A DNA stretch of 35,993 bases from a virus (IMGVR_UViG_2585427748_000014:1-35993); one strand, 5' to 3'; shown: positions 8,342-34,156, counted from the first letter of the stretch. Notes: generated by a model not told the origin, from the sequence alone. A program made the numbers and translations.

Positions 8342-9094
8342 ATGAACCTTGAAGCCTTACCAAAATATTACTCCCCAAAATCTCCAAAATTGAGTGATGA
8401 CGCACCGGCGACAGGCTCGGGTGGTTTAACAATTACAGATGTGATGGCTGCGCAGGGGATGGTGCAGTCGAAAGCACCGCTTGGGTTTTCCTTATTCCTG
8501 GCAAAAGTTGGTGTTCAGGATCCTCAGTTTGCGATTGAAGGTCTGCTCAATTACGCGATGGCACTGGATAACCCGACATTGAACAAATTGAGTGAAGAAA
8601 CCCGGCTACAGATCATTCCTTACCTTGTGAATTTTGCCTTTGCTGATTATTCCAGGTCTGCGGCAAGTAAGGCTCGCTGTGAGCATTGTGCTGGTACTGG
8701 ATTTCATAATGTATTGCGCGAAGTGGTGAAACACTCCAGAAGCGGGGAGTCTGTTATCAAGGAAGAGTGGGTGAAGGAACTATGTCAGCATTGTCATGGT
8801 AAGGGAGAAGTCAGCACAGCGTGCAGAGGGTGTAAGGGTAAAGGTATTGTCCTGGATGAAAAAAGAACCCGGCTTCATGGCACGCCTGTTTATAAGATTT
8901 GTGGGCGTTGCAATGGAAACCGGTTTAGCCGTTTACCAACCACACTGGCGCGGCTTCATGTCCAGAAGCTGGTACCAGACCTGACGGATTATCAGTGGTA
9001 CAAAGGATATGCAGATGTCATTGATAAACTGGTTACAAAGTGCTGGCAGGAGGAAGCTTACGCTGAAGCACAATTGAGAAGGGTGACGAGATAA
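8342..9094 (+). CDS. Q: Late-gene antitermination protein Q
   Basis: 250 aa with CxxC zinc-binding pairs (CEHCAGTG, CQHCHGKG, CRGCKGKG, CGRC); positioned before the lysis genes. Confidence 0.8.
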   Translation: MNLEALPKYYSPKSPKLSDDAPATGSGGLTITDVMAAQGMVQSKAPLGFSLFLAKVGVQDPQFAIEGLLNYAMALDNPTLNKLSEETRLQIIPYLVNFAFADYSRSAASKARCEHCAGTGFHNVLREVVKHSRSGESVIKEEWVKELCQHCHGKGEVSTACRGCKGKGIVLDEKRTRLHGTPVYKICGRCNGNRFSRLPTTLARLHVQKLVPDLTDYQWYKGYADVIDKLVTKCWQEEAYAEAQLRRVTR

Positions 9095-9308: not shown

Positions 9309-9578
9309 ATGAAACTGACCTCTATCCATCTTGAAATACTACGTCGAGTGAATGAATTGCAGCCAAAGGATTCTAGAATTCAGGCTGCATCATTACCTCA
9401 TCTCTCAGCAAAAGAGGTTAATTTTGCTATTTCAGATCTTGCTGATATAGGTTTTATCGATGTTATACGAAGCAAATCTGCCGAAGGTGGATTGATTGCT
9501 AATGAGATAACGTCAAAAGGTTTTGCTTTTTTGAGTGAGATTGGCGCTGAAAAAAATTCATCGATGAGCACTCATTGA
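9309..9578 (+). CDS. Small winged-helix-like protein (89 aa), A+T-rich moron gene
   Basis: AGGAG Shine-Dalgarno; wHTH-like features (LEILRRVNELQ...ISDLADIGFIDVIRS); A+T-rich relative to neighbours. Confidence 0.5.
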   Translation: MKLTSIHLEILRRVNELQPKDSRIQAASLPHLSAKEVNFAISDLADIGFIDVIRSKSAEGGLIANEITSKGFAFLSEIGAEKNSSMSTH

Positions 9579-9775: not shown

Positions 9776-10582
9776 GTGGAATCGAAAGTGTCATATTTTT
9801 ACAGAAGCAAGAATATTTCAGGTGTTTCTATAAATGAAGATAGCTTGATTAGCTTAAGCACGGCAATTGTCGAACGCTGCGTTAAAATGAATGAGCAAGC
9901 TCAAAAGGAAAGTAGGGAAGTTTGTGCCCAATGTGTTTTTTTTATTTTGTTCGATGGTAAGGGATATAAAGTTGATTCTATCGGTGAGCTTGTGAAATAC
10001 TTTAGACAGGCCACTAGGATTGATCAAATAATTTTTACTATTGAAACTTATCAAAGTCGACAGTCTAACAGGATGAATGGATCTTGGATGGAGCTACGAA
10101 TTGATGAGAGGAATTCAAATAGCAGCACAATGATTGTAGCATCGGAAGATAATGAGTGGGTTGACTCGTTATGGATTACGATTCAGGATTTACTTAACAA
10201 GTGCAAAAATAAATTTAGATTTTTTAGAACAGCTTGGACTATGTTAAGTATCCAGATTTCAGGTGTGACAGTTGGCTTTTTGCTTAGCTTATGGACAGCC
10301 TCAAAACTGGCGCCAAAACTATCAATCGATGGTGCATTTGCTTTATCATTTATTTGTATCTTTATTTTGTTTTCGAACTTATGGAGCTTTGCTATTCCAT
10401 TAATAATTAAGCTTATCGACTTTTTGTTTCCTAGTGTTAAGTTTGTTATTAATGGTAAAAATTACTTTCACTGGAGTGTCCAGGCTATAATTGGAGCGAT
10501 TGCCAGTGCGGTTATATTATATTTTATTAGCTCCATGTTGCTTTTTGCATTAGAAATGTTAAATAGCATCATTAAGAAATAG
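9776..10582 (+). CDS. Hypothetical membrane protein: soluble N-terminal domain plus three C-terminal transmembrane helices (A+T-rich moron); start uncertain (GTG 9776 or a downstream start)
   Basis: Three hydrophobic segments in the C-terminal third; A+T-rich; flanked by related hairpins. Confidence 0.5.
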   Translation: MESKVSYFYRSKNISGVSINEDSLISLSTAIVERCVKMNEQAQKESREVCAQCVFFILFDGKGYKVDSIGELVKYFRQATRIDQIIFTIETYQSRQSNRMNGSWMELRIDERNSNSSTMIVASEDNEWVDSLWITIQDLLNKCKNKFRFFRTAWTMLSIQISGVTVGFLLSLWTASKLAPKLSIDGAFALSFICIFILFSNLWSFAIPLIIKLIDFLFPSVKFVINGKNYFHWSVQAIIGAIASAVILYFISSMLLFALEMLNSIIKK

Positions 10583-10615: not shown

Positions 10616-10640
10616 GGCTGCCAAATGGTGGCCTTTTTTA
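10616..10640 (+). terminator. Rho-independent terminator after the moron membrane gene (GGCTGCCAAATGGTGGCC plus T-run)
   Basis: 7-bp stem (including G-U pairs) followed by TTTTTT. Confidence 0.6.
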
Positions 10641-10690
10641 TTCCTCTCATTTCTATTTCTGAGAGGACTCACTGCAATAAGAGGTGGCTA

Positions 10691-11077
10691 ATGTCCGATC
10701 CGATTTCCGGCACAGGGTTAGCTGGTGGAGCCCTAACGGGCGCTAGTATTTATGGACTGCTGACCGGAACTGATTACGGCGTTGTATTTGGCGCATTTGC
10801 AGGGGCTGTATTCTATATAGCAACAGCAGCAGATCTGAGTGCATCGCGTCGACTGGCATATTTTATCGTGTCATATATTGCTGGGATCCTTTGCTCTGGG
10901 TTGGTTGGCTCCAAGCTGGCAAACTTGACCGGATACAGTGATAAACCTCTGGATGCTATTGGTGCCGTAATCGTCTCTGCTTTAGCCGTTAAAATCCTGA
11001 CGTTCCTGAATAATCAGGATATCGGCTCCCTGGGGGGGCTCATAACGCGCCGGGGAGGTTCAGGTGGAGCTAAATGA
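10691..11077 (+). CDS. Putative holin (multi-TM small membrane protein)
   Basis: AAGAGG Shine-Dalgarno; Gly/Ala-rich hydrophobic segments; first gene of the lysis cassette after Q. Confidence 0.6.
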   Translation: MSDPISGTGLAGGALTGASIYGLLTGTDYGVVFGAFAGAVFYIATAADLSASRRLAYFIVSYIAGILCSGLVGSKLANLTGYSDKPLDAIGAVIVSALAVKILTFLNNQDIGSLGGLITRRGGSGGAK

Positions 11078-11345
11078 CCCGACAGCAACTATTAATGCGC
11101 TGTTATGTGCTTGTGTTGTTATTACTCTGATGTTTTATCGTCGTGGTGATTCGCGGCATCGTCCTTGGGTTTCACGTTTAGCCTGGCTGATTACTGTTAC
11201 ATACAGTGCTGTTCCGTTGGCCTATCTCTGTGGGATTTATCCTCACTCCTCATGGCTCATTATCGTGGCGAATACTATTTTTCTTTCCGTGCTGGTGGCC
11301 GTCAGAGGCAACGTTGCACGTCTGGTTGATCATCTGAGGCACTAA
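11064..11345 (+). CDS. Second lysis-cassette membrane protein (holin/antiholin-like, 3 TM), GTG start
   Basis: GGGGAGG 5 nt upstream of GTG 11064; overlaps the holin 3' end; three hydrophobic helices. Confidence 0.45.
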   Translation: MELNDPTATINALLCACVVITLMFYRRGDSRHRPWVSRLAWLITVTYSAVPLAYLCGIYPHSSWLIIVANTIFLSVLVAVRGNVARLVDHLRH

Positions 11346-17927: not shown

Positions 17928-17941
17928 TCAGGAGAAATACG

Positions 17942-19147: not shown

Positions 19148-19151
19148 TCAC

Positions 19152-19175: not shown

Positions 19176-19196
19176 TGTTCTGACGGGTGAAGAATC

Positions 19197-19397: not shown

Positions 19398-19399
19398 GC

Positions 19400-20611: not shown

Positions 20612-21168
20612 AACTGACGCCTGTTATTGCTGCGCTGCGTGCCCGCTGCCCGTATTTTGAAAACCGGGTGGCAGGCGCGGCACAGTTCAAAAATCTGCCG
20701 GAGGTCGGAAAGTTGAGACTCCCGGCGGCGTATGTGGTACCGGGTGATGACTCTCCGGGAGAAAACAAAAGCCAGACCGACTACTGGCAGGAGCTGAAAG
20801 AGGGCTTCTCCGTGGTTGTCATACTGAGTAACGGGCGTGATGAGCGCGGTCAGTTTGCCTCGTATGATGTGGTGGACGATGTCCGGCAGATGCTCTTTAA
20901 GGCCCTGCTGGGCTGGAACCCGGAAGCGTGCGGTAACCCGATTACCTATGACGGCGGCACGCTGCTGGATCTGAATCGTCATGAGCTGATTTATCAGTTC
21001 GATTTTTCGGTCATCAGCGAGCTGACCGAAGACGATACCCGCCAGCAGGATGAGCTGAACAATCTGGATGAACTGCGAACGCTGGCGATTGATGTTGATT
21101 ATCTCGATCCCGGTAACGGGCCTGACGGCGATATCGAACATCACACCGAAATAACCCTTCCTTCCTGA
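20608..21168 (+). CDS. Tail terminator / neck protein (Mu gp37-like)
   Basis: ATGA overlap; precedes the sheath gene. Confidence 0.5.
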   Translation: MKLTPVIAALRARCPYFENRVAGAAQFKNLPEVGKLRLPAAYVVPGDDSPGENKSQTDYWQELKEGFSVVVILSNGRDERGQFASYDVVDDVRQMLFKALLGWNPEACGNPITYDGGTLLDLNRHELIYQFDFSVISELTEDDTRQQDELNNLDELRTLAIDVDYLDPGNGPDGDIEHHTEITLPS

Positions 21169-21176
21169 GAATCTTC

Positions 21177-21347
21177 ATGTTTGTGAAACCTGTTAAAGGG
21201 CGGTCAGTGCCTGACCCTGCCCGCGGTGACCTTTTGCCCGCCGAAGGGCGAAATGTTGACGAGAACAACTACTGGCTGCGCCGTGAAGCAGCGGGTGATA
21301 TCCGGCGCGTGAATAAAAAGGTGAACACCGATGACGATAAGCTTTAA
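21177..21347 (+). CDS. Small conserved protein upstream of the sheath gene (DUF2635-like, 56 aa)
   Basis: ORF MFVKPVKGRSVPDPARGDLLPAEG... (below the ORF-track length cutoff); overlaps the sheath start. Confidence 0.45.
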   Translation: MFVKPVKGRSVPDPARGDLLPAEGRNVDENNYWLRREAAGDIRRVNKKVNTDDDKL

Positions 21348-22827
21348 CACCATTCCGTCGAATACGCTGGTTCCGCTGTTTTATGCGGAAATGGATAACT
21401 CGGCGGCGAATACTGCACAGGACAGCGGGGCATCGTTGCTGATTGGTCACGCCAATAACGGTGCAGAGATTGTTGCCAACAGTCTGGTGCTGATGCCGTC
21501 GGCAGACTATGCACGCCAGATTTGTGGTGCGGGAAGTCAGCTGGCGCGTATGGTCGAGGCTTATCGCCAGACCGACCCGTTTGGCGAGCTGTATGTGATT
21601 GCCGTTCCGGAAGCCACAGGCGCGGCGGCAACGGTTACGCTGACGGTGACCGGAGCAGCAACCGAAACCGGCACGGTGAATGTGTATGTGGGACGTACCC
21701 GCGTGCAGGCACCGGTGACCAACGGCGATAACGTCACGACGATTGCCAGCAGTATCAAAGATGCCATCAATGCCGTTCCGGCCCTGCCGTTTACGGCCTC
21801 ATCTTCGGCAGGCGTGGTCACACTGACCGCGCGTCATAAGGGGCTTTGCGGGAATGAAATTCCTGTCAGCCTCAATTACTACGGCTTTGGTGGGGGCGAA
21901 GTGCTGCCAGCGGGTGTACAGATTGCCGTGGCGACGGGGACCGCCGGAACGGGCGCTCCGGTTCTCACCGGTGCGGTGGCTGCAATGGCGGATGAGCCGT
22001 TTGATTATATCGGTCTGCCGTTCAACGACACGGCCTCCGTTAACACGCTGGTGACCGAGATGAACGATACCAGCGGTCGCTGGAGCTATGCGCGTCAGCT
22101 GTATGGTCATGTGTATACGGCAAAGATCGGCACGCTGTCAGAACTGGTGACCGCAGGTGACCAGTTTAACCAGCAGCACATCACCCTGGCGGGGTACGAA
22201 AAAGAGACCCAGACGCCTGCCGACGAGCTGGCGGCAAGCCGTACCGCCCGCGCAGCGGTGTTTATCCGCAACGATCCGGCACGTCCCACGCAGACCGGTG
22301 AGCTGGTGGGTATGCTGCCTGCGCCGAAGGGGAAACGGTTCACGATGACCGAGCAGCAGACCCTGCTGTCTCATGGCGTGGCAACGGCGTATGTCGAAAG
22401 CGGGGTGCTGCGCATTCAGCGTGATGTCACCACGTACAGGAAAAATGCTTACGGGGTTGCGGATAACAGCTACCTCGACAGCGAGACGCTGCATACCAGT
22501 GCGTATGTACTGCGCAAACTGAAATCCGTCATTACCAGTAAGTACGGGCGTCACAAGCTTGCCTGTGACGGTACCCGCTTTGGTCCCGGTCAGGCGATTG
22601 TCACCCCGGCGGTGATCAAAGGGGAACTGCTGGCAACCTACCGTCAGCTCGAGCGTGCGGGGATCGTGGAAAACTACGAACTGTTCAAGCAGTACCTGGT
22701 TGTGGAGCGTGATGCCAGCGATCCGAACCGCCTGAACACGCTGTTCCCGCCTGACTATGTTAACCAGTTGCGTGTCTTTGCCGTGGTTAACCAGTTCCGT
22801 CTTCAGTATTCAGAGGAGTCTGCATAA
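21331..22827 (+). CDS. Tail sheath protein (Mu gpL-like)
   Basis: 498 aa; followed by the tube gene with TAATG overlap. Confidence 0.85.
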   Translation: MTISFNTIPSNTLVPLFYAEMDNSAANTAQDSGASLLIGHANNGAEIVANSLVLMPSADYARQICGAGSQLARMVEAYRQTDPFGELYVIAVPEATGAAATVTLTVTGAATETGTVNVYVGRTRVQAPVTNGDNVTTIASSIKDAINAVPALPFTASSSAGVVTLTARHKGLCGNEIPVSLNYYGFGGGEVLPAGVQIAVATGTAGTGAPVLTGAVAAMADEPFDYIGLPFNDTASVNTLVTEMNDTSGRWSYARQLYGHVYTAKIGTLSELVTAGDQFNQQHITLAGYEKETQTPADELAASRTARAAVFIRNDPARPTQTGELVGMLPAPKGKRFTMTEQQTLLSHGVATAYVESGVLRIQRDVTTYRKNAYGVADNSYLDSETLHTSAYVLRKLKSVITSKYGRHKLACDGTRFGPGQAIVTPAVIKGELLATYRQLERAGIVENYELFKQYLVVERDASDPNRLNTLFPPDYVNQLRVFAVVNQFRLQYSEESA

Positions 22828-23183
22828 TGGCCCGTATCGGGGGAACCTGTTATTTCAAAATTGACGGTCAGCAGCTATCGCTGACCGGCGGCATTGAGGT
22901 GCCCATGAACAGGACGGTCAATGATGACATCATCGGCCTGGACGGTTCAGTGGACCGCAAGGAAACTCACCGTGCGCCTTATGTCAAAGGGACCTTCAAG
23001 GTGCCGAAGAATTTTCCGGTGAGCAAAATCACCTCGTCTGATGAGATGACCATCACTGCCGAGCTGGCGAACGGTCAGGTCTATGTACTGTCGTCTGCCT
23101 GGCTGCACGGCGAAGCGAACCATAATGCCGAAGAAGGCACGGTCGATCTTGAGTTCCACGGTGAAGAAGGGGATTACCAGTAA
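22827..23183 (+). CDS. Tail tube protein (Mu gpM-like)
   Basis: GAGGAG Shine-Dalgarno; 118 aa. Confidence 0.8.
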   Translation: MARIGGTCYFKIDGQQLSLTGGIEVPMNRTVNDDIIGLDGSVDRKETHRAPYVKGTFKVPKNFPVSKITSSDEMTITAELANGQVYVLSSAWLHGEANHNAEEGTVDLEFHGEEGDYQ

Positions 23184-23452
23184 TGAAAGAGCTTGAGTTA
23201 AAGAAACCGATTACCGCTCATGGCGAGACACTCTCCGTACTGGAGTTTGATGAGCCCACCGGGAAAGATGTCCGCGAGCTGGGGTATCCCTACCAGATGA
23301 ATCAGGATGAGTCCGTCAGACTTCTGGCGCATGTGGTATCGAAATATATTGTGCGGCTGGCGAAAGTGCCGCAAAGCTCTGTCGACCAGATGTCTCCGGC
23401 AGACCTGAATGCAGCGGCGTGGCTTGTGGCTGGGTTTTTCCTCCAGGCCTGA
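23183..23452 (+). CDS. Tail assembly chaperone (upstream frame)
   Basis: Small ORF between the tube and tape-measure genes. Confidence 0.6.
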   Translation: MKELELKKPITAHGETLSVLEFDEPTGKDVRELGYPYQMNQDESVRLLAHVVSKYIVRLAKVPQSSVDQMSPADLNAAAWLVAGFFLQA

Positions 23453-23601
23453 CGGCTGAATACCTTACTGATCGCTTCTTTGATTGCGCCAGCTACTGGC
23501 GCATTAATCCCTTCGAATTGCTGAATATGCCGATCAGTGAAATTCCCTTGCTGGTCAGTCAGGCAAACAGGATAGAGCAGGAGAAACGCACACATGGCTG
23601 A
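23419..23601 (+). CDS. Tail assembly chaperone -1 frameshift extension (probably expressed as a fusion with 23183..23452)
   Basis: Overlapping ORF in the -1 frame running into the tape-measure start; T-run GGGTTTTTC at 23432-23440. Confidence 0.45.
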   Translation: MACGWVFPPGLTAEYLTDRFFDCASYWRINPFELLNMPISEIPLLVSQANRIEQEKRTHG

Positions 23602-25426
23602 ATTTGAGCTTAAGGCGTTGATCACCGGTGTCGACAGGCTTTCTCCCGCGCTGTCGAAAATGCAAAAGAAAATCCGGGGATTTAAACGCCAGGCGGAAGA
23701 AGCGTCACAGGGTGGGCTGGCGCTTGGTGGCGGACTGGCAGCGGGTCTGACGCTTTCCCTGAAATCTTATGCCGATCAGGAAAACGCCGCCACCGGGCTG
23801 AAAGTCGCCATGATGGATGCGAATGGCGAGGTTGGAAAGAGCTTTCAGGACATCAATAAACTGGCTATTGGCCTGGGTAACCAGCTACCCGGTACAACGG
23901 CTGATTTCCAGAACATGATGCAGATGCTGGTGCGTCAGGGGATCCCGGCAGAAAACATTCTTGGCGGTGTGGGTAAAGCGACAGCTTATCTTGCGGTACA
24001 ACTGAAAAAAACACCGGAAGCGGCTGCTGAGTTTGCTGCAAAGATGCAGGATGCTACCGGAACGGCGTCAGAAGACATGATGGGGCTGTTCGACACTATC
24101 CAGAAGGCGTTTTATCTGGGCGTTGACGATACCAACATGTTGTCCTTCTTCACTAAAACCAGTTCTGTTCTGAAGATGGTGAACAAGGACGGTCTTCAGG
24201 CTGCACAGAGCCTTGCCCCCATCAGCGTCATGATGGATCAGATGGGGATGAACGGGGAGTCGGCAGGTAATGCCCTGCGAAAAGTTATCCAGTCCGGATT
24301 AAGCGTTAAGAAAATCAGGGACGTCAATAAAATCATGGCCCGCCAGAAACTCGGGGTACAGCTCGATTTTACTGACGGCAAAGGAAGTTTTGGCGGTCTT
24401 GATAACATGTTCAGGCAACTGGCAAAGCTGCGAAAACTGACCGACGTTAAGCGAACAGGTGTACTTAAGGCAATATTTGGTGATGATGCCGAAACCCTTC
24501 AGGTGGTCAATGCACTAATCGATAAAGGAAAGGATGGCTACGATCAGATCCAGCAGAAGATGAATAAACAGGCCAGCCTGAATAAACGTGTTCAGGCCCA
24601 GCTTGGTACGCTGTCCAACCTGTGGGAGGCAATGACGGGGACCGCAACTAACGGCCTTGCGGCTATTGGCGGCGCATTTTCTGGTGACGCCAAAAATATC
24701 ACGCAATGGCTGGGGGAGTTGGGGGAGAAATTCACGAAGTTTGCGGATGAAAATCCCCGGGTTATTCGCGGCGTCGTCGGGCTTGCTGCCGGTCTTGCGA
24801 TTCTGAAACTGGGATTGATGGGCGTGGGCAGTGCCATCAGTATCGTCAGCAGGATCATGTCGATGACGCCGATTGGCATGATTGCGACGGCGATTGCCCT
24901 GGCTGCGGGATTAATTATCACTAACTGGGATGTTGTCGGACCTTATTTTAAGAAACTCTGGGAAACCATTAGTCCTTATTTTGAGGCTGGCTGGGAACTT
25001 CTGAAGAAGGTTTTTGCCTGGTCGCCGCTGGGGATGGTGATCAATAACTGGGGACCGGTTGTTAAGTGGTTTCAGGATATGTGGGATAAGCTGAAGCCGA
25101 TTATTGAATGGTTTACCGACAGTTCCGGTGACACGGTCGATGCCATTAACTCGGCGCAGTGGGGCGCGGGTGCTTATGATGCTTATGGGACGGGAATACC
25201 GGCACGGGGATACACGCCTTATCCGGCGGTGGATCCGGCTCAGGCAAACAACGCCTCCGATGCCACAGGCTCGAATCCCTTCATGATTAATAAAGCTACC
25301 GCGCCAAAAGTTGATGGTGAGATCAAGGTATCATTTATAAATATGCCACCAGATATGCGGGTTACGGAAACACGCTCCAGTGGCATTGATATAAATCACG
25401 ATGTTGGCTATACCCGATTTTGGTAG
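23594..25426 (+). CDS. Tail tape measure protein
   Basis: 610 aa; Ala/Gly/Gln-rich helical repeats and a central hydrophobic segment. Confidence 0.85.
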   Translation: MAEFELKALITGVDRLSPALSKMQKKIRGFKRQAEEASQGGLALGGGLAAGLTLSLKSYADQENAATGLKVAMMDANGEVGKSFQDINKLAIGLGNQLPGTTADFQNMMQMLVRQGIPAENILGGVGKATAYLAVQLKKTPEAAAEFAAKMQDATGTASEDMMGLFDTIQKAFYLGVDDTNMLSFFTKTSSVLKMVNKDGLQAAQSLAPISVMMDQMGMNGESAGNALRKVIQSGLSVKKIRDVNKIMARQKLGVQLDFTDGKGSFGGLDNMFRQLAKLRKLTDVKRTGVLKAIFGDDAETLQVVNALIDKGKDGYDQIQQKMNKQASLNKRVQAQLGTLSNLWEAMTGTATNGLAAIGGAFSGDAKNITQWLGELGEKFTKFADENPRVIRGVVGLAAGLAILKLGLMGVGSAISIVSRIMSMTPIGMIATAIALAAGLIITNWDVVGPYFKKLWETISPYFEAGWELLKKVFAWSPLGMVINNWGPVVKWFQDMWDKLKPIIEWFTDSSGDTVDAINSAQWGAGAYDAYGTGIPARGYTPYPAVDPAQANNASDATGSNPFMINKATAPKVDGEIKVSFINMPPDMRVTETRSSGIDINHDVGYTRFW

Positions 25427-25454
25427 CCAGGATTCCCCTCACAGGTATTGCTGG

Positions 25455-25482
25455 TTGTAAGTCATAAATAGAGTGATAGAAT
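25455..25482 (+). promoter_or_regulatory. Candidate sigma70 promoter for the tail-module moron (-35 TTGTAA, 16-bp spacer, -10 TAGAAT)
   Basis: Hexamers read from the sequence upstream of the gene at 25518. Confidence 0.4.
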
Positions 25483-25517
25483 TAATGCACATTTAGAAAA
25501 ATGTTAATAGGCGAAAA

Positions 25518-26048
25518 ATGAAAGGCTATATCACAGCAAGTGTAATTCTTGGAGCAGCGGCTATTTTTTCATCTCTCATAATCTCTGGCAACATCTCCTT
25601 TAAAGATGAACATATTATTCAGTTATCTGGAGGAGCCATAAAACTTGGTGATGTTTATAAAGAAAATAAATTGATAAGTGCAAAGATTATTTTTCCAGAT
25701 AATCAGGGTGAACAGATTCTTGTTGTCGACGGCAATCCTGAAAACTTTAAGGAGGATTTTCAGGAGAAATTAAATAAAGTAATAAAAACTTTAAATGCGT
25801 CAAAGAAAAAAGATGAAGAGAAAGTTAGCCTGGATAATTTAAGTGTTATTGAAGAGTCTAAACTAGAGCTCGTTTCTGCGGTGCGTTACTCTGCTCAGTA
25901 TGTTCCTATGTTTACTCTGACGCTGGACAAAAAAGAAATTACCATGCCTAAAAATACGGTAATATTTCCATTTGCCAGCGATGAAACAGCTAAGTATTTA
26001 AATGAACAACAGCAAAAGTATAAAGATTCGTTGTTTCTGACTCGCTAA
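25518..26048 (+). CDS. Hypothetical signal-anchored or secreted protein (176 aa), A+T-rich moron inside the tail module
   Basis: N-terminal hydrophobic signal/anchor; Lys/Glu-rich body; A+T-rich; own promoter-like element and terminator. Confidence 0.55.
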   Translation: MKGYITASVILGAAAIFSSLIISGNISFKDEHIIQLSGGAIKLGDVYKENKLISAKIIFPDNQGEQILVVDGNPENFKEDFQEKLNKVIKTLNASKKKDEEKVSLDNLSVIEESKLELVSAVRYSAQYVPMFTLTLDKKEITMPKNTVIFPFASDETAKYLNEQQQKYKDSLFLTR

Positions 26049-26066
26049 TTAATAAAATTCATTACA

Positions 26067-26100
26067 AGGCCACCTTCTAATAGGTGGCTTTTTTATTTTC
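26067..26100 (+). terminator. Rho-independent terminator (AGGCCACC...GGTGGCTT plus T-run)
   Basis: Stem-loop followed by TTTTTTATTTT. Confidence 0.65.
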
Positions 26101-26109
26101 GGAGTGTAT

Positions 26110-27438
26110 ATGACGTGGAAAGACAGGCTTCAGGATGCGTCATTTCGAGGTGTGCCGTTTAAGGTTGAAGAAGAAAGTGCGGGAACCGGTCGCCGTGTGG
26201 AAACACATGAATACCCGAACCGCGACAAGCCCTATACCGAAGATCTGGGAAAAGTCACTTTCCGCCCGTCCATCACAGCTTATGTGGTGGGAGATGACTG
26301 CTTTGACCAGCGCGATCGCCTGATTGAAGCGCTGAATAAACCCGGTCCCGGCAAGCTTGTCCACCCGACATATGGTGAGCTGAAAGTCTGTGTTGACGGG
26401 GAAGTTCGGGTCAGCACATCGAAAAGTGAAGGGCGTATTGTCCGCTTTGACCTGAAGTTTGTCGAAGCAGGAGAACTCTCTTACCCCACATCAGGTGCGG
26501 CGACGGCGCAGACGCTGATGTCATCCTGTTCTGCACTGGATGACTGCATCAGTGACAGTTTCAGTGGTTTCAGTATCGATGGCGTGGCGGATTTTGTGCA
26601 GAACGACGTCGTCGGTAATGCCAGCACAATGCTTGGGTATGTTTCTGATGCGATGAAAGTGGTGGATTCTGCCGTATCGGATGCCGCCAGACTGTTGCAG
26701 GGGGATATCTCGGTACTTCTGCCGCCGCCATCGTCAGGCAAAAATTTCGTTGAGCAGGTGCAGAAAATGTGGCGTACCGGGAAGCGCCTTTATGGTAACG
26801 CCAGCGACCTGGTCACCATGATCAAAACGCTTTCCGGTGTCAGCCTCGGCAGCGATCTGCAACCGCGCGGCGTCTGGAAAACGGACAGTAAAACCACCGC
26901 CACGGCTACGCAGCAGCGTAACGTGGTTGCCAGCACCCTTCGTACGACCGCAATCAGCGAAGCGGCGTATGCCGTCACCCGATTGCCTGCGCCAACAACT
27001 TCCGCGGTGATGCAGAATGCCGCAGTGGGGCAGGCAACAACACCTGCGCAGAGCACTGGCTGGCCTTCCGTCACGCATCCGGCACTGAACAATGCACCGG
27101 CGGTGAAAAACACAGTTGACCTGCCGACGTGGGAAGAACTGACTGACATTCGCGACACACTGAATACGGCAATTGATAAGGAGTTGTCCCGTACAACCAG
27201 TGATGCGCTGTTTCTGGCGCTGCGCCGGGTGAAAGCAGATCTGAATGCGGATATCAACACGCGCCTTGAACAGTCTGCACGGATCATTCAGCGCACGCCG
27301 GATGAGGTTTTACCCGCGCTGGTGCTGGCGGCGACCTGGTTTGATAACGCGGCGCGTGACGCGGACATTATCCGGCGTAATGCCATTACGCATCCCGGCT
27401 TTGTGCCGGTGATCCCTCTGAAGGTGCCAGTGCAATGA
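26110..27438 (+). CDS. DNA circularization protein (Mu gpN-like)
   Basis: GGAG Shine-Dalgarno; position after the tape measure gene. Confidence 0.75.
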   Translation: MTWKDRLQDASFRGVPFKVEEESAGTGRRVETHEYPNRDKPYTEDLGKVTFRPSITAYVVGDDCFDQRDRLIEALNKPGPGKLVHPTYGELKVCVDGEVRVSTSKSEGRIVRFDLKFVEAGELSYPTSGAATAQTLMSSCSALDDCISDSFSGFSIDGVADFVQNDVVGNASTMLGYVSDAMKVVDSAVSDAARLLQGDISVLLPPPSSGKNFVEQVQKMWRTGKRLYGNASDLVTMIKTLSGVSLGSDLQPRGVWKTDSKTTATATQQRNVVASTLRTTAISEAAYAVTRLPAPTTSAVMQNAAVGQATTPAQSTGWPSVTHPALNNAPAVKNTVDLPTWEELTDIRDTLNTAIDKELSRTTSDALFLALRRVKADLNADINTRLEQSARIIQRTPDEVLPALVLAATWFDNAARDADIIRRNAITHPGFVPVIPLKVPVQ

Positions 27439-28514
27439 ACGATAACGTCACGCTACGGGTAAATGGCCGGGAGTGGAATGGCTGGACATCGGTGCGCATC
27501 GGTGCCGGTGTTGAACGACTGGCGCGGGATTTCAGTGTGGAGATCCCCCGCCAGTGGCCGGGAGATGATGGTATCACCACGCTTCAGCCGCGCATTAAAA
27601 ATGGTTCAAAAGTGGAAGTGCTGATTGGTGATGAGCTGGTGATCACCGGCTGGGTGGAGGCGACCCCCGTTCGTTACGATGCCCGTTCGGTCAGCACCGG
27701 TATTGCCGGACGTAGTCTGACCGCTGACCTGATTGACTGTGCAGCCGAACCGACACAGTTTAACGGACGATCGCTGGTACAGATTGCGCAGGCGCTTGCT
27801 GCGCCTTTCGGCATTGAGGTGGTGAACAGCGATGCGCCGTCGGGTGTTATTCCGGATGTCCAGCCTGATCACGGTGAAACGGTGATCGAGGTGATCAACA
27901 AAATACTCGGTCAGCAGCAGGCGCTGGCTTATGACGACCCGCACGGCAGGCTGGTGATTGGTGGTATTGGCTCAACGCGGGCACATACCGCGCTGGTACT
28001 TGGGGAAAACATCCTTTCCTGTGATACGGAGAAGAGTATCCGGGAGCGGTTTTCAGTTTACCAGGTGGCGGGGCAGCGTGCCGGAAACGACGATGATTTC
28101 GGTGAGGCCACCACCACCGCGCTGCGGGCCCGCACAGAGGATGCATTTATTGCCCGTTACCGTCCGATGTATATCAGGCAGACAGGGCAGGCTACGGGGG
28201 CAGGCTGTATTGCGCGTGCTGACTTTGAAGCCCGACAACGGGCGGCGCGGACGGATGAAACCACCTATGTGGTGCAGGGCTGGCGACAGGGTAACGGTAC
28301 GCTGTGGCAGCCCAACCAGCGGGTGATTGTCTTCGATCCGGTCTGTGGTTTCGACAATACCGAACTGCTTGTCTCGGAAGTCACGTTTACTCAGGACCAG
28401 AATGGCACCCTGACGGAAATCCGTGTCGGCCCGCCTGATGCTTATCTGCCTGAACCCGAAGATCCCGGCGCGCGGAAAAAGAAAAAAGCCAGAGTACAGG
28501 AGGACCCGTTCTGA
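27435..28514 (+). CDS. Baseplate hub / tail protein (Mu gpP-like)
   Basis: 359 aa; ATGA overlap; conserved Mu-like order. Confidence 0.75.
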   Translation: MNDNVTLRVNGREWNGWTSVRIGAGVERLARDFSVEIPRQWPGDDGITTLQPRIKNGSKVEVLIGDELVITGWVEATPVRYDARSVSTGIAGRSLTADLIDCAAEPTQFNGRSLVQIAQALAAPFGIEVVNSDAPSGVIPDVQPDHGETVIEVINKILGQQQALAYDDPHGRLVIGGIGSTRAHTALVLGENILSCDTEKSIRERFSVYQVAGQRAGNDDDFGEATTTALRARTEDAFIARYRPMYIRQTGQATGAGCIARADFEARQRAARTDETTYVVQGWRQGNGTLWQPNQRVIVFDPVCGFDNTELLVSEVTFTQDQNGTLTEIRVGPPDAYLPEPEDPGARKKKKARVQEDPF

Positions 28515-29062
28515 TGAGGACGATTGAAGCAATGCAGCGACAACTTCTCGGCCTGATTGGGCGGGCAGTGGTGAAAAGCATCAGTGCCGCCACGAAATGT
28601 CAGACCGTGGATGTGTCCCTGATTGCCGGTGAACCCAAAGCCGGGGTTGAACATCTTGAACCCTACGGTTTTACCGCAAGGGCAAACAGCGGTGCGGAAG
28701 CGGTGGTGTTGTTTCCGGATGGCGACCGTTCTCACGCGGTGGTTGTTACGGTGTCGGACCGTCGCTACCGCCTGAAAGGGCTGCAGACGGGTGAGGTGGC
28801 TGTCTATGACGATCAGGGGCAGTCCGTGACGCTGACCCGGGAGGGGATCGTGGTGGACGGTGCAGGTAAAACGATCACGTTTCGCAATTCACCTAAAGCA
28901 CGTTTTGAAATGGACCTTGAAGTGACCGGACAGGTGAAAGACCTGTGCGACTCCGGCGGTACCACCATGTCAGCGATGCAGCTTGCCTATAACGGGCATC
29001 GTCACAGAGAGAACGGTCAGGGCAGTAACACCGACAAACCTGATAAAGCGATGGAGGCATGA
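28514..29062 (+). CDS. Baseplate spike/assembly protein (gpV / Mu gp45-like)
   Basis: 182 aa at the conserved position. Confidence 0.7.
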   Translation: MRTIEAMQRQLLGLIGRAVVKSISAATKCQTVDVSLIAGEPKAGVEHLEPYGFTARANSGAEAVVLFPDGDRSHAVVVTVSDRRYRLKGLQTGEVAVYDDQGQSVTLTREGIVVDGAGKTITFRNSPKARFEMDLEVTGQVKDLCDSGGTTMSAMQLAYNGHRHRENGQGSNTDKPDKAMEA

Positions 29063-29487
29063 TGGAACTGTGGCTGACGGTGAACGGTAAACGCACCTGC
29101 GCCAGCGCACAGCTGGATCCGCTGACCCGCGCCGTGGTGATTTCCCTGTTTACCTGGCGGCGGGCGGAGCCTGATGACAACGCCGACGTCCCGATGGGAT
29201 GGTGGGGGGATACCTGGCCTGCGGTACAGAATGACCGTTACGGCTCCCGACTGTGGCTGCTTCAGCGCAGCAAACTGACCAATCAGCTGGTGCAGACGGT
29301 AAGGGGGTATATCCGCGAATGCCTGCAATGGATGATTGATGACGGCGTGGTGTCCCGTATTGATCTGGATATCCGCCGCACCGGGATTAATGAACTGGGT
29401 AACAGTATCACTCTCTGGCGTCGTGACGGACCGGTAATGATTTCTTTTGATGATCTGTGGAGTGCGATAACGCATGGCGGACAGTGA
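29059..29487 (+). CDS. Baseplate protein (Mu gp46-like)
   Basis: 142 aa; ATGA overlap. Confidence 0.65.
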   Translation: MMELWLTVNGKRTCASAQLDPLTRAVVISLFTWRRAEPDDNADVPMGWWGDTWPAVQNDRYGSRLWLLQRSKLTNQLVQTVRGYIRECLQWMIDDGVVSRIDLDIRRTGINELGNSITLWRRDGPVMISFDDLWSAITHGGQ

Positions 29488-30532
29488 ATTTCAGCGCCCG
29501 ACGCTGGCAGAAAATATCAGTATGCTCCGTAACGATTTATTCGCCAGGCTGGACGTCAGCAACACGCTCCGGCGCATGGATGAAGACGTGCGGGCAAAGG
29601 TGTATGCGGCGGCGCTGCATACGGTTTACGGGTACATCGATTATCTGGCAATGAACATGCTGCCTGACCTGTGCGATGAGTCCTGGCTGGCGCGACATGC
29701 TGCGATGAAACGGTGTCCGCGCAAGGGGGCCACGGCTGCCAGCGGGTATATGCGCTGGGAAGGTGTCAGCGATGGCCTGAAGGTGACCGCCGGGAGTGTT
29801 ATTCAGCGCGATGACCTGGTGCAGTACACGGCAACTGCCGATGCAACCAGCTCCGGTGGTGTCCTGCGCGTGCCGATCGCCTGCTCAAGTGCAGGCGCGG
29901 TCGGTAACGCTGACGACGGTACGTCATTAATCCTGGTCACGCCGGTGAATGGTCTGCCGTCTTCCGGCGTGGCAGATACACTGACAGGTGGATTTGATAC
30001 TGAAGAGCTGGAAACGTGGCGCGCCCGCGTCATTGAGCGGTATTACTGGACGCCTCAGGGCGGGGCTGACGGGGACTATGTCGTCTGGGCTAAAGAAGTG
30101 CCCGGCATTACCCGCGCATGGACATACCGACACTGGATGGGAACGGGGACTGTCGGTGTGATGATTGCCAGCAGTGACCTGATTAATCCCATTCCGGAAG
30201 AATCAACGGAAATGGCGGCAAGACAACATATCGGGCCACTGGCCCCGGTGGCAGGCTCTGATTTGTATGTGTTCAGGCCGGTGGCGCATACGGTGGATTT
30301 TCATATCCGTGTGACGCCGGATACACCAGAAATACGGGCTGCCATCACCGCCGAGTTGCGTTCGTTCCTGCTGCGTGATGGTTATCCGCAGGGAGAACTG
30401 AAGGTGTCGCGTATCAGTGAAGCGATTTCCGGTGCGAACGGGGAATACAGCCATCAGTTGCTTGCACCGGCAGACAATATCTCCATTGCAAAAAATGAAC
30501 TGGCGGTACTGGGGACGATTTCATGGACGTGA
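29474..30532 (+). CDS. Baseplate J-like protein (Mu gp47-like)
   Basis: 352 aa at the conserved position. Confidence 0.8.
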
Positions 30533-31107
30533 CAAACGATGATTACATCCGTCTGTTGTCGGCACTGTTGCCCCCCGGTCCGGCGTGGTCAGCCAGCGAT
30601 CCGGCGATTGCCGGTGCGGCACCGTCATTAACCCGCGTTCATCAGCGTGCGGATGCCCTGATGCGGGAGCTGGATCCGCGCACCACCACTGAACTGATAA
30701 ACCGCTGGGAGCGTCTGTGCGGCCTGCCGGATGAATGTATTCCTACAGGGACACAGACCCTTCGCCAGCGTCAGCAACGGCTGGATGCGAAGATTAATCT
30801 GGCGGGCGGCATTAATGAGGATTTTTACCTTGCACAGCTTGCTGCCCTGGGCAGACCAGACGCCACCATCACGCGATACGATAAAAGCACGTTCACCTGC
30901 TCATCTGCCTGTACTGACGCGGTGAATGCGCCGGAATGGCGGTATTACTGGCAGGTCAACATGCCAGCCGCCACCAACACCACCTGGATGACATGTGGCG
31001 ATCCCTGTGATTCCGCACTGCGTATCTGGGGCGACACCGTTGTCGAGTGTGTGCTTAACAAACTCTGCCCTTCGCATACCTACGTAATTTTTAAATATCC
31101 GGAGTAA
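30523..31107 (+). CDS. Tail protein (Mu gp48-like, YmfQ/DUF2313 family)
   Basis: 194 aa between baseplate J and the tail fibre. Confidence 0.7.
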
Positions 31108-31110
31108 TCC

Positions 31111-32390: not shown

Positions 32391-32410
32391 CGCGGTTTTA
32401 TTTATTTTAC
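32376..32410. terminator. Bidirectional rho-independent terminator between convergent genes (ACCGCGC-AATA-GCGCGGT flanked by A- and T-runs)
   Basis: Perfect 7-bp GC stem with an A tract upstream and a T tract downstream. Confidence 0.75.
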
Positions 32411-33421
32411 TGCTAAAATTCGTTTTCTTAGCATCAGCTCTAAAGGCTCCTCAACTAATTTATAAAGTATGATTGAGACTATGGTTATTATAACAAGGAG
32501 CGCTATTAAATAGAGTGGTCCGGGGTTATGTCCAAAGATTTTAAAGCAAAATAATATAATGGGTTGATGAATTAAATAAAAAATAAATGATGATTTCCCT
32601 AATAGCTCTAGGGTTTTTGAACTGAGGATAGTATGAATGACTCCATTTCTTAGATAGATGCATGAAGTAAAGAATATTACCATGGGGAGTAAATAATATA
32701 ACGAATAACGTAGACTATTATTTATGTTGTTGCTATAATATATAGCTATTAGCAGAGGTAATAGTGAAATTAAAAACAAAAGGCTGTCGACTGTCTGCTG
32801 TCGGCTGTTTTTCCAGCAAGCGTAAATAATCATGCCGCAAATAAATTCTACCAAGCGGCTTACTGGGAATATATAATATAACCAGTGATTAAGTTCTTCT
32901 GTTTGTATAATTTTTAAAAAATATATAGTTAATAGTAGAGTTATAATTGATATTGCAGTGATTACTTTCTTTGTAATTGATGTATAAATCAACGGAATAA
33001 ACATTAAATAAAAAAACAGCTCATCAGACAAAGACCATGATACACCATTTAATGAGAAGTAGTAATCCTCCTTTGGTATCCAACTTTGCATTAATAAAAT
33101 ATTTGTTAAGGTTTTTGAAAAATCAAAGTTCTTTAAGTGAATGGTTAGTAAAATAAATGGCATGGCTAATAATAGATGCATTGGAACAATTCTTGCCAAT
33201 CTTAAAAGAATAAACTGTCTTTTACTTGTTACTTCATTTTTTAGCTTGTCTTCATATGAATATGAAAGAATGAAGCCAGATAAAATAAAGAAAAAGGAAA
33301 CGCCAATAAATCCCTGGGAAAACATTTCTTTTACAAAAACACCAAAATAGTCTGTATTTAAATGGCATAAATAAACCATTAATGCAGCTATAAATCTGAG
33401 TCCTGTTAAGTGGCGAAGCAT
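32402..33421 (-). CDS. Acyltransferase family 3 membrane protein (O-antigen acetyltransferase-like conversion gene)
   Basis: ATG at 33421 with AGAGG Shine-Dalgarno; N-terminal motif RHLTGLRFIAALMVYLCH typical of acyltransferase-3; about 10 predicted TM helices; A+T-rich. Confidence 0.8.
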   Translation of the reverse strand: MLRHLTGLRFIAALMVYLCHLNTDYFGVFVKEMFSQGFIGVSFFFILSGFILSYSYEDKLKNEVTSKRQFILLRLARIVPMHLLLAMPFILLTIHLKNFDFSKTLTNILLMQSWIPKEDYYFSLNGVSWSLSDELFFYLMFIPLIYTSITKKVITAISIITLLLTIYFLKIIQTEELNHWLYYIFPVSRLVEFICGMIIYACWKNSRQQTVDSLLFLISLLPLLIAIYYSNNINNSLRYSLYYLLPMVIFFTSCIYLRNGVIHTILSSKTLELLGKSSFIFYLIHQPIILFCFKIFGHNPGPLYLIALLVIITIVSIILYKLVEEPLELMLRKRILAVK

Positions 33422-34156
33422 CAATAACCTCTTGTTATGAAGATAAAGCAATTCAAAAGAGGCATTTTATGACTGTAGGGGATTGGTGTCTATATGAATG
33501 AGTAATCTGGTTTTTAAAATCTTCTTTAATTACAAAATAAACCTTTCTTAGGCTATAGATTTGTGGCTGTAACACTGTGTGTCCACGACATTGAGACATC
33601 CTTCCGCTTTGCTATAGATGTGGAATTCAGGATCAAGCGATATCGGACTCATCCTCAGCACCACCCGGTTAATCTGGATAACGGGAGAAGGGAAGCGCTG
33701 CCAGAAGATGATGATGGTTACAGTTCTGCACTGGCTATTCTGCACTGGCTATATTCGTGGTGATCACTTACATAATTAATGACGCCAGGAATACGGAGTT
33801 TGATGATTGCCTGGTGATGTGAGAAAAAACTCATACACACAAAGCTTTGCACTGGATTGCAAGGCTTTGTGCTATTCGATAGCACGAGTTTGAATGAAAA
33901 TCAGCCGTTATCGATTTTACGTATTTTTGTATGAGAGGATTTTTACCTCCTCCCACCGATCCTCCATAACTTTACGACACTGTCTCTAGGACTGCTATGT
34001 GCCAAGAGCGGAATTTTCTAATATTATGCTGCATTCGTTTAAGGGGAGCAGATCAGCTAACGACTCCTACGTCCTGGGGAAAGGTCACATATGCTAAACA
34101 GCAGCTCAGCAAAGAGAAGAGCGAATTTGGTAACGGGAAACCGTTATGATATGAAT

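What the first reader, a model, noticed from the sequence alone, without database searches (positions are those of the whole stretch)
25455..26100. A+T-rich moron inserted inside the tail module, encoding a signal-anchored protein
Between the tape-measure gene and the Mu N-like gene, where tail genes normally abut, lies an A+T-rich ORF with its own promoter-like element and a strong terminator. The product has an N-terminal signal/anchor and a Lys/Glu-rich body, so it is probably periplasmic or membrane-anchored and expressed from the prophage. Envelope-located prophage products often mediate superinfection exclusion or alter the cell surface.
Basis: partly seen in the sequence, partly recalled or inferred. 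Interest (0 to 1): 0.6.

Follow-up and report, generated by a model that had tools for sequence, protein, structure and literature searches.

The report
Exported-protein moron in prophage tail operon
An extra, A+T-rich gene for a membrane-anchored, probably periplasm-facing protein sits in a swappable slot between two tail genes of an SfV-like E. coli prophage; it is a classic "moron" that most likely helps the lysogen exclude other phages, although its function has not been tested.

Summary
ORF 25518-26048 (176 aa, RefSeq WP_000679479.1) has 34% G+C against about 55% for the late operon. It lies between the tape-measure gene and the Mu-N-like gene, with a sigma70-like promoter upstream and a strong hairpin terminator downstream.

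It is not a tail component. SfV, SfI and SfII have 45 nt at this junction and SfIV has 24 nt. Among 5426 complete E. coli genomes about 532 have the empty junction and 179 carry this gene.

The slot is a cassette hotspot. At least five other unrelated cargos occupy it, and five of the six cargo types carry export signals. One matches a PHROG family annotated "superinfection exclusion Sie-like".

The protein has no Pfam, PADLOC, NCBIfam or PDB match. It belongs to phrog_5485 (function unknown). A confident AlphaFold model (pLDDT 92) shows an N-terminal membrane helix and an alpha/beta domain with no fold match in the PDB.

The family is under strong purifying selection (dN/dS about 0.08). It keeps this slot at 41-59% identity in Leclercia and Edwardsiella prophages and in an uncultured viral contig. 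It survives intact in two decayed prophage remnants. At 23% identity it rides in the cargo regions of integrative elements.

Verdict: a genuine moron, and a new member of a known kind. A superinfection-exclusion role is plausible but unproven.

The parts
23594..25426 (+). Left flank: tail tape-measure protein gene (610 aa)
   Evidence: PF10145 PhageMin_Tail, E 1.3e-26. Homologous to SfV orf14.
25427..25517 (+). 5' non-coding part of the cassette. Homology to the empty-site phages ends at the tape-measure stop codon.
   Evidence: Junction comparison with SfV and the other cargo variants. No flanking direct repeats or target duplication.
25455..25482 (+). Sigma70-type promoter-like element: -35 TTGTAA, 16-nt spacer, extended -10 TGaTAGAAT
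   Evidence: Consensus scan, 9 of 12 matches plus TG. Not above chance alone. Comparable elements lie 20-40 nt upstream of the ATG in 5 of 8 diverged homologues.
25509..25511 (+). Weak Shine-Dalgarno-like AGG, 6 nt before the ATG
   Evidence: Read directly from the sequence.
25518..26048 (+). Moron ORF, 176 aa (identical to RefSeq WP_000679479.1, 'hypothetical protein'); member of phrog_5485
   Evidence: dN/dS about 0.08. 73 of 74 near-identical viral-contig copies are intact.
25521..25586 (+). Codons 2-23: N-terminal hydrophobic helix, read as a signal anchor (less likely a cleaved signal peptide)
   Evidence: Kyte-Doolittle 19-residue window scores 2.11 at residues 5-23. AlphaFold helix 2-23. 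The family median uncharged run is 22 residues, and no lipobox or Cys is present.
25611..26030 (+). Codons 32-171: alpha/beta domain (strands 32-72, helix 74-93, hairpin 114-143, helix 149-171), predicted to face the periplasm
26066..26100 (+). Intrinsic terminator: 10-bp stem (5 G-C pairs), 6-nt loop, T run
   Evidence: dG -15.6 kcal/mol, z -5.3. Analogous hairpins occur in the empty SfV/SfII junction, where SfII depositors annotated a terminator, and in the plus-strand cargo variants examined.
26110..27438 (+). Right flank: Mu N-like DNA circularization / tail protein gene. Its GGAG ribosome-binding site at 26101-26104 is where homology with empty-site phages resumes.
   Evidence: PF07157 DNA_circ_N, E 5e-34. 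Junction comparison.
8342..9094 (+). Context: Q-type antiterminator gene. It would let late transcription read through the hairpin terminators inside the tail operon.
   Evidence: PF03589 Antiterm, E 3.5e-53. The read-through itself is an inference from lambdoid biology.

Best explanation
The element is a self-contained accessory cassette (a moron). It occupies an exchangeable slot between the tape-measure gene and the Mu-N-like gene of an SfV-like, Q-antiterminated E. coli prophage.

It probably has its own sigma70 promoter, so the repressed prophage could express it. In lytic growth, Q-modified late transcription would read through it and its terminator.

The product is a small bitopic inner-membrane protein. 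It has a short cytoplasmic N-terminus, one membrane helix (residues about 2-23), and a 140-residue alpha/beta domain facing the periplasm.

My committed mechanism: in the lysogen this periplasmic domain interferes with an early envelope step of infection by other phages. Most likely it blocks passage of the tail tip, tape measure or DNA across the periplasm and inner membrane after adsorption. This is superinfection exclusion in the manner of HK97 gp15, P22 SieA, P1 Sim or T4 Sp.

Shown: the cassette nature, dispensability for the virion, hotspot exchange, membrane-helix-plus-domain architecture, and purifying selection. Inferred: prophage expression, N-in/C-out topology, and the anti-phage activity with its step.
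For: Accessory and non-structural:
- The gene is absent from phages SfV, SfI, SfII and SfIV.
- About 532 complete E. coli genomes have the empty junction, against 179 with the gene.

Hotspot:
- The same junction holds a bPH_1 PH-domain protein (28 genomes), a TM-anchored OB-fold protein on the opposite strand (79), a 164-aa signal-peptide protein (85), a 225-aa lipoprotein (55) and a 162-aa signal-peptide protein.
- These cargos are unrelated to this protein.
- Five of the six cargo types carry export signals.
- The OB-fold cargo matches phrog_8545 'superinfection exclusion Sie-like' at E 1.5e-49. It has the TM-plus-OB architecture of the anti-phage proteins AbiP and PdpSau (PMC10127798).
- The minus-strand orientation of that cargo shows that the slot does not depend on late-operon transcription.

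A real, selected protein:
- dN/dS is 0.08 at dS about 1.1, and 73 of 74 copies are intact.
- Homologues at 41-59% identity occupy the same slot in Leclercia and Edwardsiella prophages and in an uncultured viral contig, always at 34-38% G+C.

Retained after prophage decay:
- In Lelliottia only the last 41 tape-measure codons, the gene and the terminator survive, next to icd.
- In E. coli WL297 the intact gene lies between truncated tape-measure, N, portal and recombinase pseudogenes.

Mobile-element cargo elsewhere: 23%-identical members lie beside resolvase genes in integrative elements, one type also carrying an Mrr-type nuclease, the other an integrase and DUF5906.

Architecture: helix 2-23 plus a confident alpha/beta domain. 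The only structural neighbour is a phage protein annotated as a lipoprotein, which is also envelope-targeted.

Transcription signals: promoter-like site, terminator and the Q gene.

Precedent: the HK97 gp15 moron lies next to the tape-measure gene. It encodes an inner-membrane protein that blocks DNA entry in a tail-dependent way (PMC3594210).
Against: - No experiment or transcript data exist; expression from the prophage is only inferred.
- The promoter match is not above chance on its own and is weak in 3 of 8 homologues.
- There is no sequence or fold similarity to any characterised exclusion or defence protein: PADLOC, Pfam and NCBIfam give nothing, and PDB gives nothing by sequence or fold.
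- The 'Sie-like' label belongs to a different, unrelated cargo and is itself only a family annotation.
- Topology is ambiguous. Charge counts on the two sides of the helix are similar (1.14 versus 1.31), and cleavage by signal peptidase cannot be excluded.
- Envelope morons can have non-phage roles, as with lambda Bor and Lom.
Confidence: 0.45

Rival explanations
1. It is an envelope fitness or virulence moron unrelated to phage exclusion. The prophage-expressed periplasmic or membrane protein would change host physiology, for example serum or stress resistance, adhesion or envelope homeostasis, as lambda Bor, Lom and Iss do.
For: The same architecture and cassette evidence applies. Morons with such roles are well documented in late regions of lambdoid phages (PMC3594210). 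The gene is retained in decayed prophages, which fits any host benefit. The window's prophage also carries an acyltransferase-type surface-modification moron.
Against: There is no similarity to Bor, Iss, Lom or any known virulence family. The hotspot neighbour cargo and the mobile-element contexts point towards phage conflict. The family also occurs in genomes named Pseudomonas sp., including a marine (Tara) source, and in Leclercia and Edwardsiella, so it is not tied to one host niche.
Confidence: 0.22
2. It is a membrane-anchored abortive-infection or sensor-effector protein. It would sit in the inner membrane and, when triggered by an infecting phage, damage the membrane or stop growth so that the infected cell yields no progeny, rather than blocking entry.
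For: Single-gene, membrane-anchored prophage Abi proteins exist (AbiP, PdpSau; PMC10127798). Distant homologues lie beside an Mrr-type nuclease in mobile-element cargo regions.
Against: The bulk of the protein is predicted to lie on the far side of the membrane from the short N-terminus, with no cytoplasmic domain to sense replication. There is no second membrane helix or pore-like feature, and no PADLOC match.
Confidence: 0.1
3. It acts for the phage during lytic growth. It would be transcribed with the late operon and either mask receptors or envelope sites so that progeny are not wasted on debris (as T5 Llp does), or tune lysis or ejection.
For: The gene is co-oriented with the Q-dependent late operon and lies inside it, so it must be transcribed late.
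Against: It is dispensable in viable phages SfV, SfI and SfII. One alternative cargo at the slot is on the opposite strand. The gene survives in remnants that can no longer grow lytically. The lysis cassette is already complete (two holin-type genes, an endolysin and a DUF2514 protein).
Confidence: 0.1
4. It is a structural or assembly component of the tail, such as a tape-measure- or baseplate-associated factor.
For: Only its position between the tape-measure and baseplate-hub genes.
Against: It is absent from SfV, SfI, SfII and SfIV and from about 532 E. coli genomes whose flanks are 95-98% identical. It can be replaced by unrelated cargos. It has an export signal and foreign base composition. 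Homologues occur outside tail modules.
Confidence: 0.02
5. It is a non-functional hitch-hiking ORF or an annotation artefact in A+T-rich spacer DNA.
For: No family annotation anywhere. A few truncated or 5'-deleted copies exist.
Against: dN/dS is about 0.08. There are 77 family representatives at 50% clustering, with conserved motifs. AlphaFold gives a confident fold. 73 of 74 copies are intact.
Confidence: 0.02

Closest known systems
HK97 gp15 moron (Juhala et al. 2000; Cumby et al. 2012; reviewed in PMC3594210)
   Same: Both are self-contained cassettes with foreign base composition, inserted in the tail operon directly beside the tape-measure gene. Both encode a small protein with a single N-terminal membrane helix. 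HK97 gp15 is prophage-expressed and blocks phage DNA entry in a way that depends on the incoming tail.
   Different: There is no sequence relationship: gp15 is YebO-like, and this protein matches no Pfam family. The insertion is downstream rather than upstream of the tape-measure gene, and the tail is a Mu-type contractile tail rather than a siphovirus tail. This protein has a 140-residue folded extracytoplasmic domain. Its function is untested.
Periplasm- or inner-membrane-acting superinfection exclusion proteins: P22 SieA, P1 Sim, T4 Sp and Imm (own knowledge; SieA in PMC10883804)
   Same: All are small prophage- or phage-encoded envelope proteins that act after adsorption. The predicted location matches.
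   Different: No homology or fold match was detected. The mechanism and targets here are unknown.
Outer-membrane lipoprotein receptor blockers (T5 Llp, phi80/N15 Cor) and TP-J34 Ltp
   Same: All are exported phage proteins that exclude phages. The one structural neighbour of this protein is a phage protein annotated as a lipoprotein, and one alternative cargo at the slot is a lipoprotein.
   Different: This protein has no cysteine or lipobox, so it is not a lipoprotein. No sequence similarity was found.
Defence/cargo hotspots of temperate phages and satellites (P2/P4 hotspots, Rousset et al. 2022; PMC13586616)
   Same: A fixed intergenic position between conserved genes holds interchangeable, unrelated cassettes that are exchanged through homologous flanks.
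   Different: The location is inside the tail structural operon of SfV-like phages. Cargos are single small genes, mostly exported proteins, and none matches a known defence system in PADLOC. I found no description of this hotspot in the searchable literature.
phrog_5485 (PHROGs v4, unknown function)
   Same: Full-length match, E 3.8e-108, residues 1-176 against profile positions 1-176. This is the family it belongs to.
   Different: The family carries no functional annotation.

Membership tests
Moron (Hendrix/Juhala definition) | Extra DNA between two genes that are adjacent in related phages | tested here: met
   SfV, SfI and SfII have 45 nt between the tape-measure and N genes, against 683 nt here. 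About 532 E. coli genomes have the empty junction.
Moron (Hendrix/Juhala definition) | Base composition different from the surrounding genes | tested here: met
   0.343 against a late-operon mean of 0.546 (sd 0.048). It is the operon's minimum.
Moron (Hendrix/Juhala definition) | Own promoter | tested here: inconclusive
   TTGTAA-16-TGaTAGAAT at 25455-25482. The count of such sites is not above the shuffled expectation. Similar sites recur in 5 of 8 diverged homologues. No transcript data.
Moron (Hendrix/Juhala definition) | Own terminator | tested here: met
   Hairpin at 26066-26091 plus a T run, dG -15.6, z -5.3. Caveat: the empty junction also has a terminator hairpin.
Moron (Hendrix/Juhala definition) | Expressed from the repressed prophage | not testable with these tools
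   Needs RNA-seq, 5' RACE or a reporter fusion in a lysogen.
HK97 gp15 / YebO family | Sequence homology to YebO/gp15 | tested here: not met
   The Pfam-A scan returned no family at E up to 0.1 for the protein, and no consistent family for 58 relatives.
HK97 gp15 / YebO family | Blocks DNA entry in a tail- or tape-measure-dependent way | not testable with these tools
   Requires infection assays.
Sie-like OB-fold proteins (phrog_8545) | Homology to the family profile or members | tested here: not met
   This protein hits phrog_5485, not phrog_8545. hhalign against the slot's OB-fold cargo gives probability 1.7%.
Lipoprotein receptor blockers (Cor/Llp type) | Lipobox with an invariant Cys after the signal sequence | tested here: not met
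   The protein has no cysteine. Only 1 of 58 family members has a lipobox-like motif.
Known anti-phage defence systems (PADLOC-DB 2.0) | Match to any component model | tested here: not met
   0 families at E up to 0.1 for this protein and for four alternative cargos.
Structural tail protein of SfV-like/Mu-type tails | Present in all functional relatives at a conserved position | tested here: not met
   Absent from SfV, SfI, SfII and SfIV and from most related prophages.
phrog_5485 | Full-length profile match | tested here: met
   E 3.8e-108, residues 1-176 against profile positions 1-176.

The most novel reading that the evidence does not exclude
The junction between the tape-measure and N genes of SfV-like (Mu-type tail) prophages is an undescribed hotspot that specialises in small exported anti-phage effectors, with at least six interchangeable cassettes. 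WP_000679479.1 would found a new family, with a fold not seen in the PDB, of periplasm-facing superinfection-exclusion proteins. The family is shared between prophages of the Enterobacterales (Escherichia, Leclercia, Lelliottia, Edwardsiella) and integrative elements in genomes named Pseudomonas sp.
Probability: 0.3. Interest if true: 0.6.

Novelty: new member of a known kind. Interest (0 to 1): 0.4.

Why it matters
Morons in tail operons are a textbook phenomenon, so the gene's existence is not surprising. Three things make it a useful lead.

First, the protein family is wholly uncharacterised. It has no Pfam, PDB or defence-database match, yet it is under strong purifying selection and gives a confident predicted fold.

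Second, it sits in a well-defined hotspot that occurs in about a fifth of complete E. coli genomes. The interchangeable cargos there are almost all exported proteins. That gives a small, directly testable set of candidate envelope-level exclusion factors.

Third, the gene survives after its prophage decays, which suggests a benefit to the host.

If the exclusion role is confirmed, it would add a new periplasmic mechanism of phage exclusion. It would also add a new place to look for such genes. Such cassettes could also matter for phage-therapy host range in E. coli and Shigella.

Tried and rejected
- Family searches with Pfam, NCBIfam and PADLOC on the protein found nothing. Pfam on all 58 aligned relatives gave only scattered single chance hits.
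- A PDB sequence-profile search found nothing.
- The AFDB Foldseek library was unavailable.
- tblastn against 50,697 deposited phage genomes gave no match, so no sequenced isolated phage in that collection carries the gene.
- The search for related loci failed with the deep alignments because they lack conserved peptide stretches. The genome scan with the close alignment returned only the Edwardsiella locus.
- I looked for direct repeats or a target-site duplication flanking the insert and found none, so exchange is by flanking homology rather than transposition or site-specific insertion.
- I looked for homology between this protein and the other slot cargos and found none.
- Rfam found no RNA family in the region.
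- Literature searches for the hotspot, for the accession, and for morons between tape-measure and DNA-circulation genes found nothing specific.
- A positive-inside charge count across the family did not settle the topology.
- The idea that the terminator is the moron's own was rejected, because the empty junction has one too.

Full report
**1. What is in the sequence**

The gap between the tape-measure gene (23594..25426; PF10145) and the Mu-N-like DNA_circ_N gene (26110..27438; PF07157) is 683 nt. It contains one substantial ORF, 25518..26048 on the + strand, 176 aa. Nothing comparable lies on the other strand.

Its G+C is 0.343. The late structural operon (13000-32200) has a mean of 0.546 (sd 0.048), and its minimum of 0.331 falls at 25562. 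The ORF is therefore the only A+T island in that operon, about 4 sd below the mean.

Upstream lies a sigma70-like element at 25455-25482, TTGTAA-16 nt-TGaTAGAAT. It matches 9 of 12 positions and has an extended -10 TG. The number of such sites in this A+T-rich stretch is no higher than in shuffles (2 found, 2.8 expected).

Downstream, at 26066-26091, is a 10-bp hairpin followed by a T run. Its dG is -15.6 kcal/mol and z is -5.3 against shuffles.

**2. It is extra DNA in an exchangeable slot**

The window is an SfV-like prophage of E. coli. The 2.7 kb around the ORF matches 1099 of 5426 complete E. coli genomes at 95-100% identity. Only about 175 of these matches cover the insert, and the insert itself is found in 179 genomes at 99% identity or more.

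In phages SfV, SfI and SfII the tape-measure and N genes are 45 nt apart. In SfIV, which has a different tape-measure lineage, they are 24 nt apart. A probe spanning the empty SfV junction covers at least 80% in 532 genomes.

Other genomes carry other cargo at exactly this junction:
- a bPH_1 PH-domain protein, in 28 genomes;
- a membrane-anchored tRNA_anti-like OB-fold protein on the opposite strand, in 79 genomes;
- a 164-aa protein with a classical signal peptide, in 85 genomes and also in phage SKA5;
- a 225-aa lipoprotein with lipobox LLGGC, in 55 genomes;
- in another tape-measure lineage, a 162-aa protein with a signal peptide ending SFA|K.

None of the three exported alternatives tested by profile comparison (OB-fold, 164-aa, lipoprotein) is related to the protein studied here.

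One genome carries a 5'-deleted copy of the ORF.

No direct repeats flank the insert. Homology with empty-site phages stops at the tape-measure stop codon and resumes at the T run and GGAG ribosome-binding site of the N gene. The cassettes are therefore swapped by recombination in the conserved flanks, as in other phage cargo hotspots.

**3. The terminator belongs to the junction**

The empty junction and every plus-strand cargo variant examined end in a G+C-rich hairpin plus a T run directly before the N-gene ribosome-binding site. This includes the empty SfV/SfII junction, where the SfII depositors annotated a rho-independent terminator. The minus-strand OB-fold cassette (L003) has no hairpin at that position.

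The window encodes a Q-type antiterminator at 8342..9094 (PF03589). The inference, from lambdoid biology, is that late transcription reads through these hairpins while any cassette-initiated transcript stops there.

**4. The protein**

Pfam, NCBIfam and PADLOC find nothing. PHROGs places it full-length in phrog_5485, of unknown function (E 3.8e-108). RefSeq calls it WP_000679479.1, 'hypothetical protein'. No paper in the searchable library mentions that accession.

Residues 5-23 form the only hydrophobic segment (Kyte-Doolittle 2.1). There is no cysteine, so it is not a lipoprotein.

An exhaustive profile search of 1.8 billion representatives finds 77 family representatives. Nearly all are 170-200 aa, with the same N-terminal hydrophobic segment (median uncharged run 22 residues). 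They share the motifs N-[IV]-x5-G-x-V-x-L-G-x-V-Y-x-E and Y-x-S-E-x-x-P-x-F-x-L-x-L-D.

With this 58-sequence alignment AlphaFold2 gives a confident model (pLDDT 92, pTM 0.76). It has a helix at 2-23, a short linker, strands across 32-72, a helix at 74-93, a long hairpin at 114-143 and a helix at 149-171.

The length of the hydrophobic segment and the lack of a conserved small-x-small cleavage motif favour a signal anchor with the domain in the periplasm. This is an inference. The charge balance is uninformative, and cleavage is not excluded. One UniRef entry for a homologue is auto-named 'Secreted protein'.

**5. Evolutionary behaviour**

Homologues at 41-59% identity occupy the same slot between the tape-measure and N genes in prophages of Leclercia adecarboxylata, L. 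pneumoniae and Edwardsiella anguillarum, and in an uncultured viral contig (L088). Two more viral-contig homologues at 55% identity (L090, L091) are preceded by a homologous tape-measure 3' end. All have 34-38% G+C against 47-56% flanks.

Its divergence is similar to that of the tape-measure protein (39-49%). It diverges much faster than the N protein (about 70%) and gpP (83%).

Where synonymous sites are not saturated, dN/dS is about 0.08. 73 of 74 near-identical copies in viral contigs are intact, and their few substitutions are mostly synonymous or conservative. It is a real, constrained protein.

Two independent prophage remnants keep the gene:
- In Lelliottia amnigena, next to icd, only the last 41 tape-measure codons, the gene and its hairpin remain.
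- In E. coli WL297 the intact gene lies between pseudogene stubs of the portal, tape-measure, N and recombinase genes.

Distant members at about 23% identity, found in genomes named Pseudomonas sp. (including a marine source), are not in tail modules. They lie beside resolvase genes in the cargo regions of small integrative elements. One element type also carries an Mrr-type restriction nuclease. The other carries an integrase and DUF5906.

**6. How it most likely works**

Shown:
- It is an autonomous-looking cassette in a hotspot.
- It is dispensable for the virion.
- It encodes a selected membrane-helix-plus-domain protein.

Inferred:
- It is transcribed from its own promoter in the lysogen. 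Promoter-like sites recur in 5 of 8 diverged homologues. One alternative cargo is on the opposite strand, so the slot does not rely on late transcription.
- The domain faces the periplasm.
- It protects the lysogen from other phages at an envelope step, most plausibly passage of the tail tip, tape measure or DNA across the periplasm and inner membrane.

Support for the last step is circumstantial:
- Five of the six cargo types are exported proteins.
- One alternative cargo belongs to a PHROG family annotated 'superinfection exclusion Sie-like' (E 1.5e-49). It has the architecture of the membrane-anchored OB-fold anti-phage proteins AbiP and PdpSau.
- The gene outlives its prophage.
- Relatives travel as mobile-element cargo, in one element type beside a restriction enzyme.
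- The closest precedent is the HK97 gp15 moron next to the tape-measure gene. It is an inner-membrane protein that blocks DNA entry in a tail-dependent manner.

I put about 0.45 on this full statement. I put about 0.9 on the moron/hotspot part alone.

Rivals:
- a non-phage envelope fitness factor of the Bor/Lom type (0.22);
- a membrane abortive-infection effector (0.10);
- a role for the phage in lytic growth (0.10);
- a structural tail role (0.02), effectively refuted;
- junk DNA (0.02), effectively refuted.

**7. Comparison with what is known, and novelty**

It meets the definition of a moron on position, composition and terminator. The promoter is inconclusive, and prophage expression cannot be tested here.

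It is not a member of the gp15/YebO family, the Sie-like OB-fold family, the Cor/Llp lipoproteins or any PADLOC system. It is a member of phrog_5485.

I found no description of this hotspot or this family in the searchable literature. No deposited phage genome in the collection carries the gene.

It is therefore a new member of a known kind: a tail-operon moron that encodes an envelope protein. The added interest is an uncharacterised fold and a tidy hotspot of exported cargos. Interest is moderate (0.4), because the phenomenon is classical and the function is unproven.

Noticed in passing
window 8954-10880 (ORF 9776..10582, +): A second A+T-rich island (35-37% G+C) lies between the Q antiterminator gene and the holin genes, the position where lambdoid phages carry Stx and other morons. 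It holds a 268-aa ORF with no Pfam match, a member of phrog_30208 (unknown function). A small DUF2513-like ORF lies at 9309..9578.
   Followed up: partly
window 32402..33451 (-), island 32051-33808: A third A+T-rich island (30% G+C) lies just after the tail-fibre genes, on the opposite strand. It encodes a 349-aa Acyl_transf_3 protein (PF01757, E 2e-30). This is probably an O-antigen acetyltransferase-type serotype-conversion moron, which would be a surface-modifying exclusion function in the same prophage.
   Followed up: partly
window 930-1152 (-): Rfam match to the sRNA family STnc100 (RF02076), 48.5 bits against a gathering score of 47. It is the only RNA family hit in the window.
   Followed up: no
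L007 8013-9808 (Leclercia adecarboxylata prophage): In the Leclercia relative, two extra genes (503 aa and 94 aa, no Pfam hits) lie between the N-like gene and the gpP baseplate gene. These two genes abut in the window and in L. pneumoniae. This may be a second insertion site in the same tail module.
   Followed up: no
L093 5401-5943 and L096 5774-5974: In the integrative elements from genomes named Pseudomonas sp. and from metagenomes, the distant homologue is preceded on the same strand by another small envelope protein. One is a 180-aa protein with a signal peptide; the other is a 66-aa two-helix membrane protein. They could be partners in a two-gene unit.
   Followed up: no
L103 (E. coli KSC1031) tape-measure gene, corresponding to window 24400-25426: The closest genome match has a 1-nt length difference within the tape-measure 3' half (2702 nt against 2701 nt), and RefSeq annotates that tape-measure gene as frameshifted. 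The window's copy is intact. That prophage is probably defective while the moron remains intact.
   Followed up: no
window 10625..11345: Two different holin-family genes sit in tandem (Phage_holin_8, 150 aa, and Phage_holin_3_7, 93 aa). They precede a Glyco_hydro_19-type endolysin and a DUF2514 protein.
   Followed up: no
junctions in L001, L002, L004, L005, L007, L092: A terminator hairpin sits inside the tail operon directly upstream of the N-gene ribosome-binding site, even at the empty junction. The hairpin sequence differs between cassettes, but its position is fixed. This may be a remnant of past cassette turnover, or a regulatory feature that sets the ratio of tape-measure to baseplate transcripts.
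   Followed up: partly
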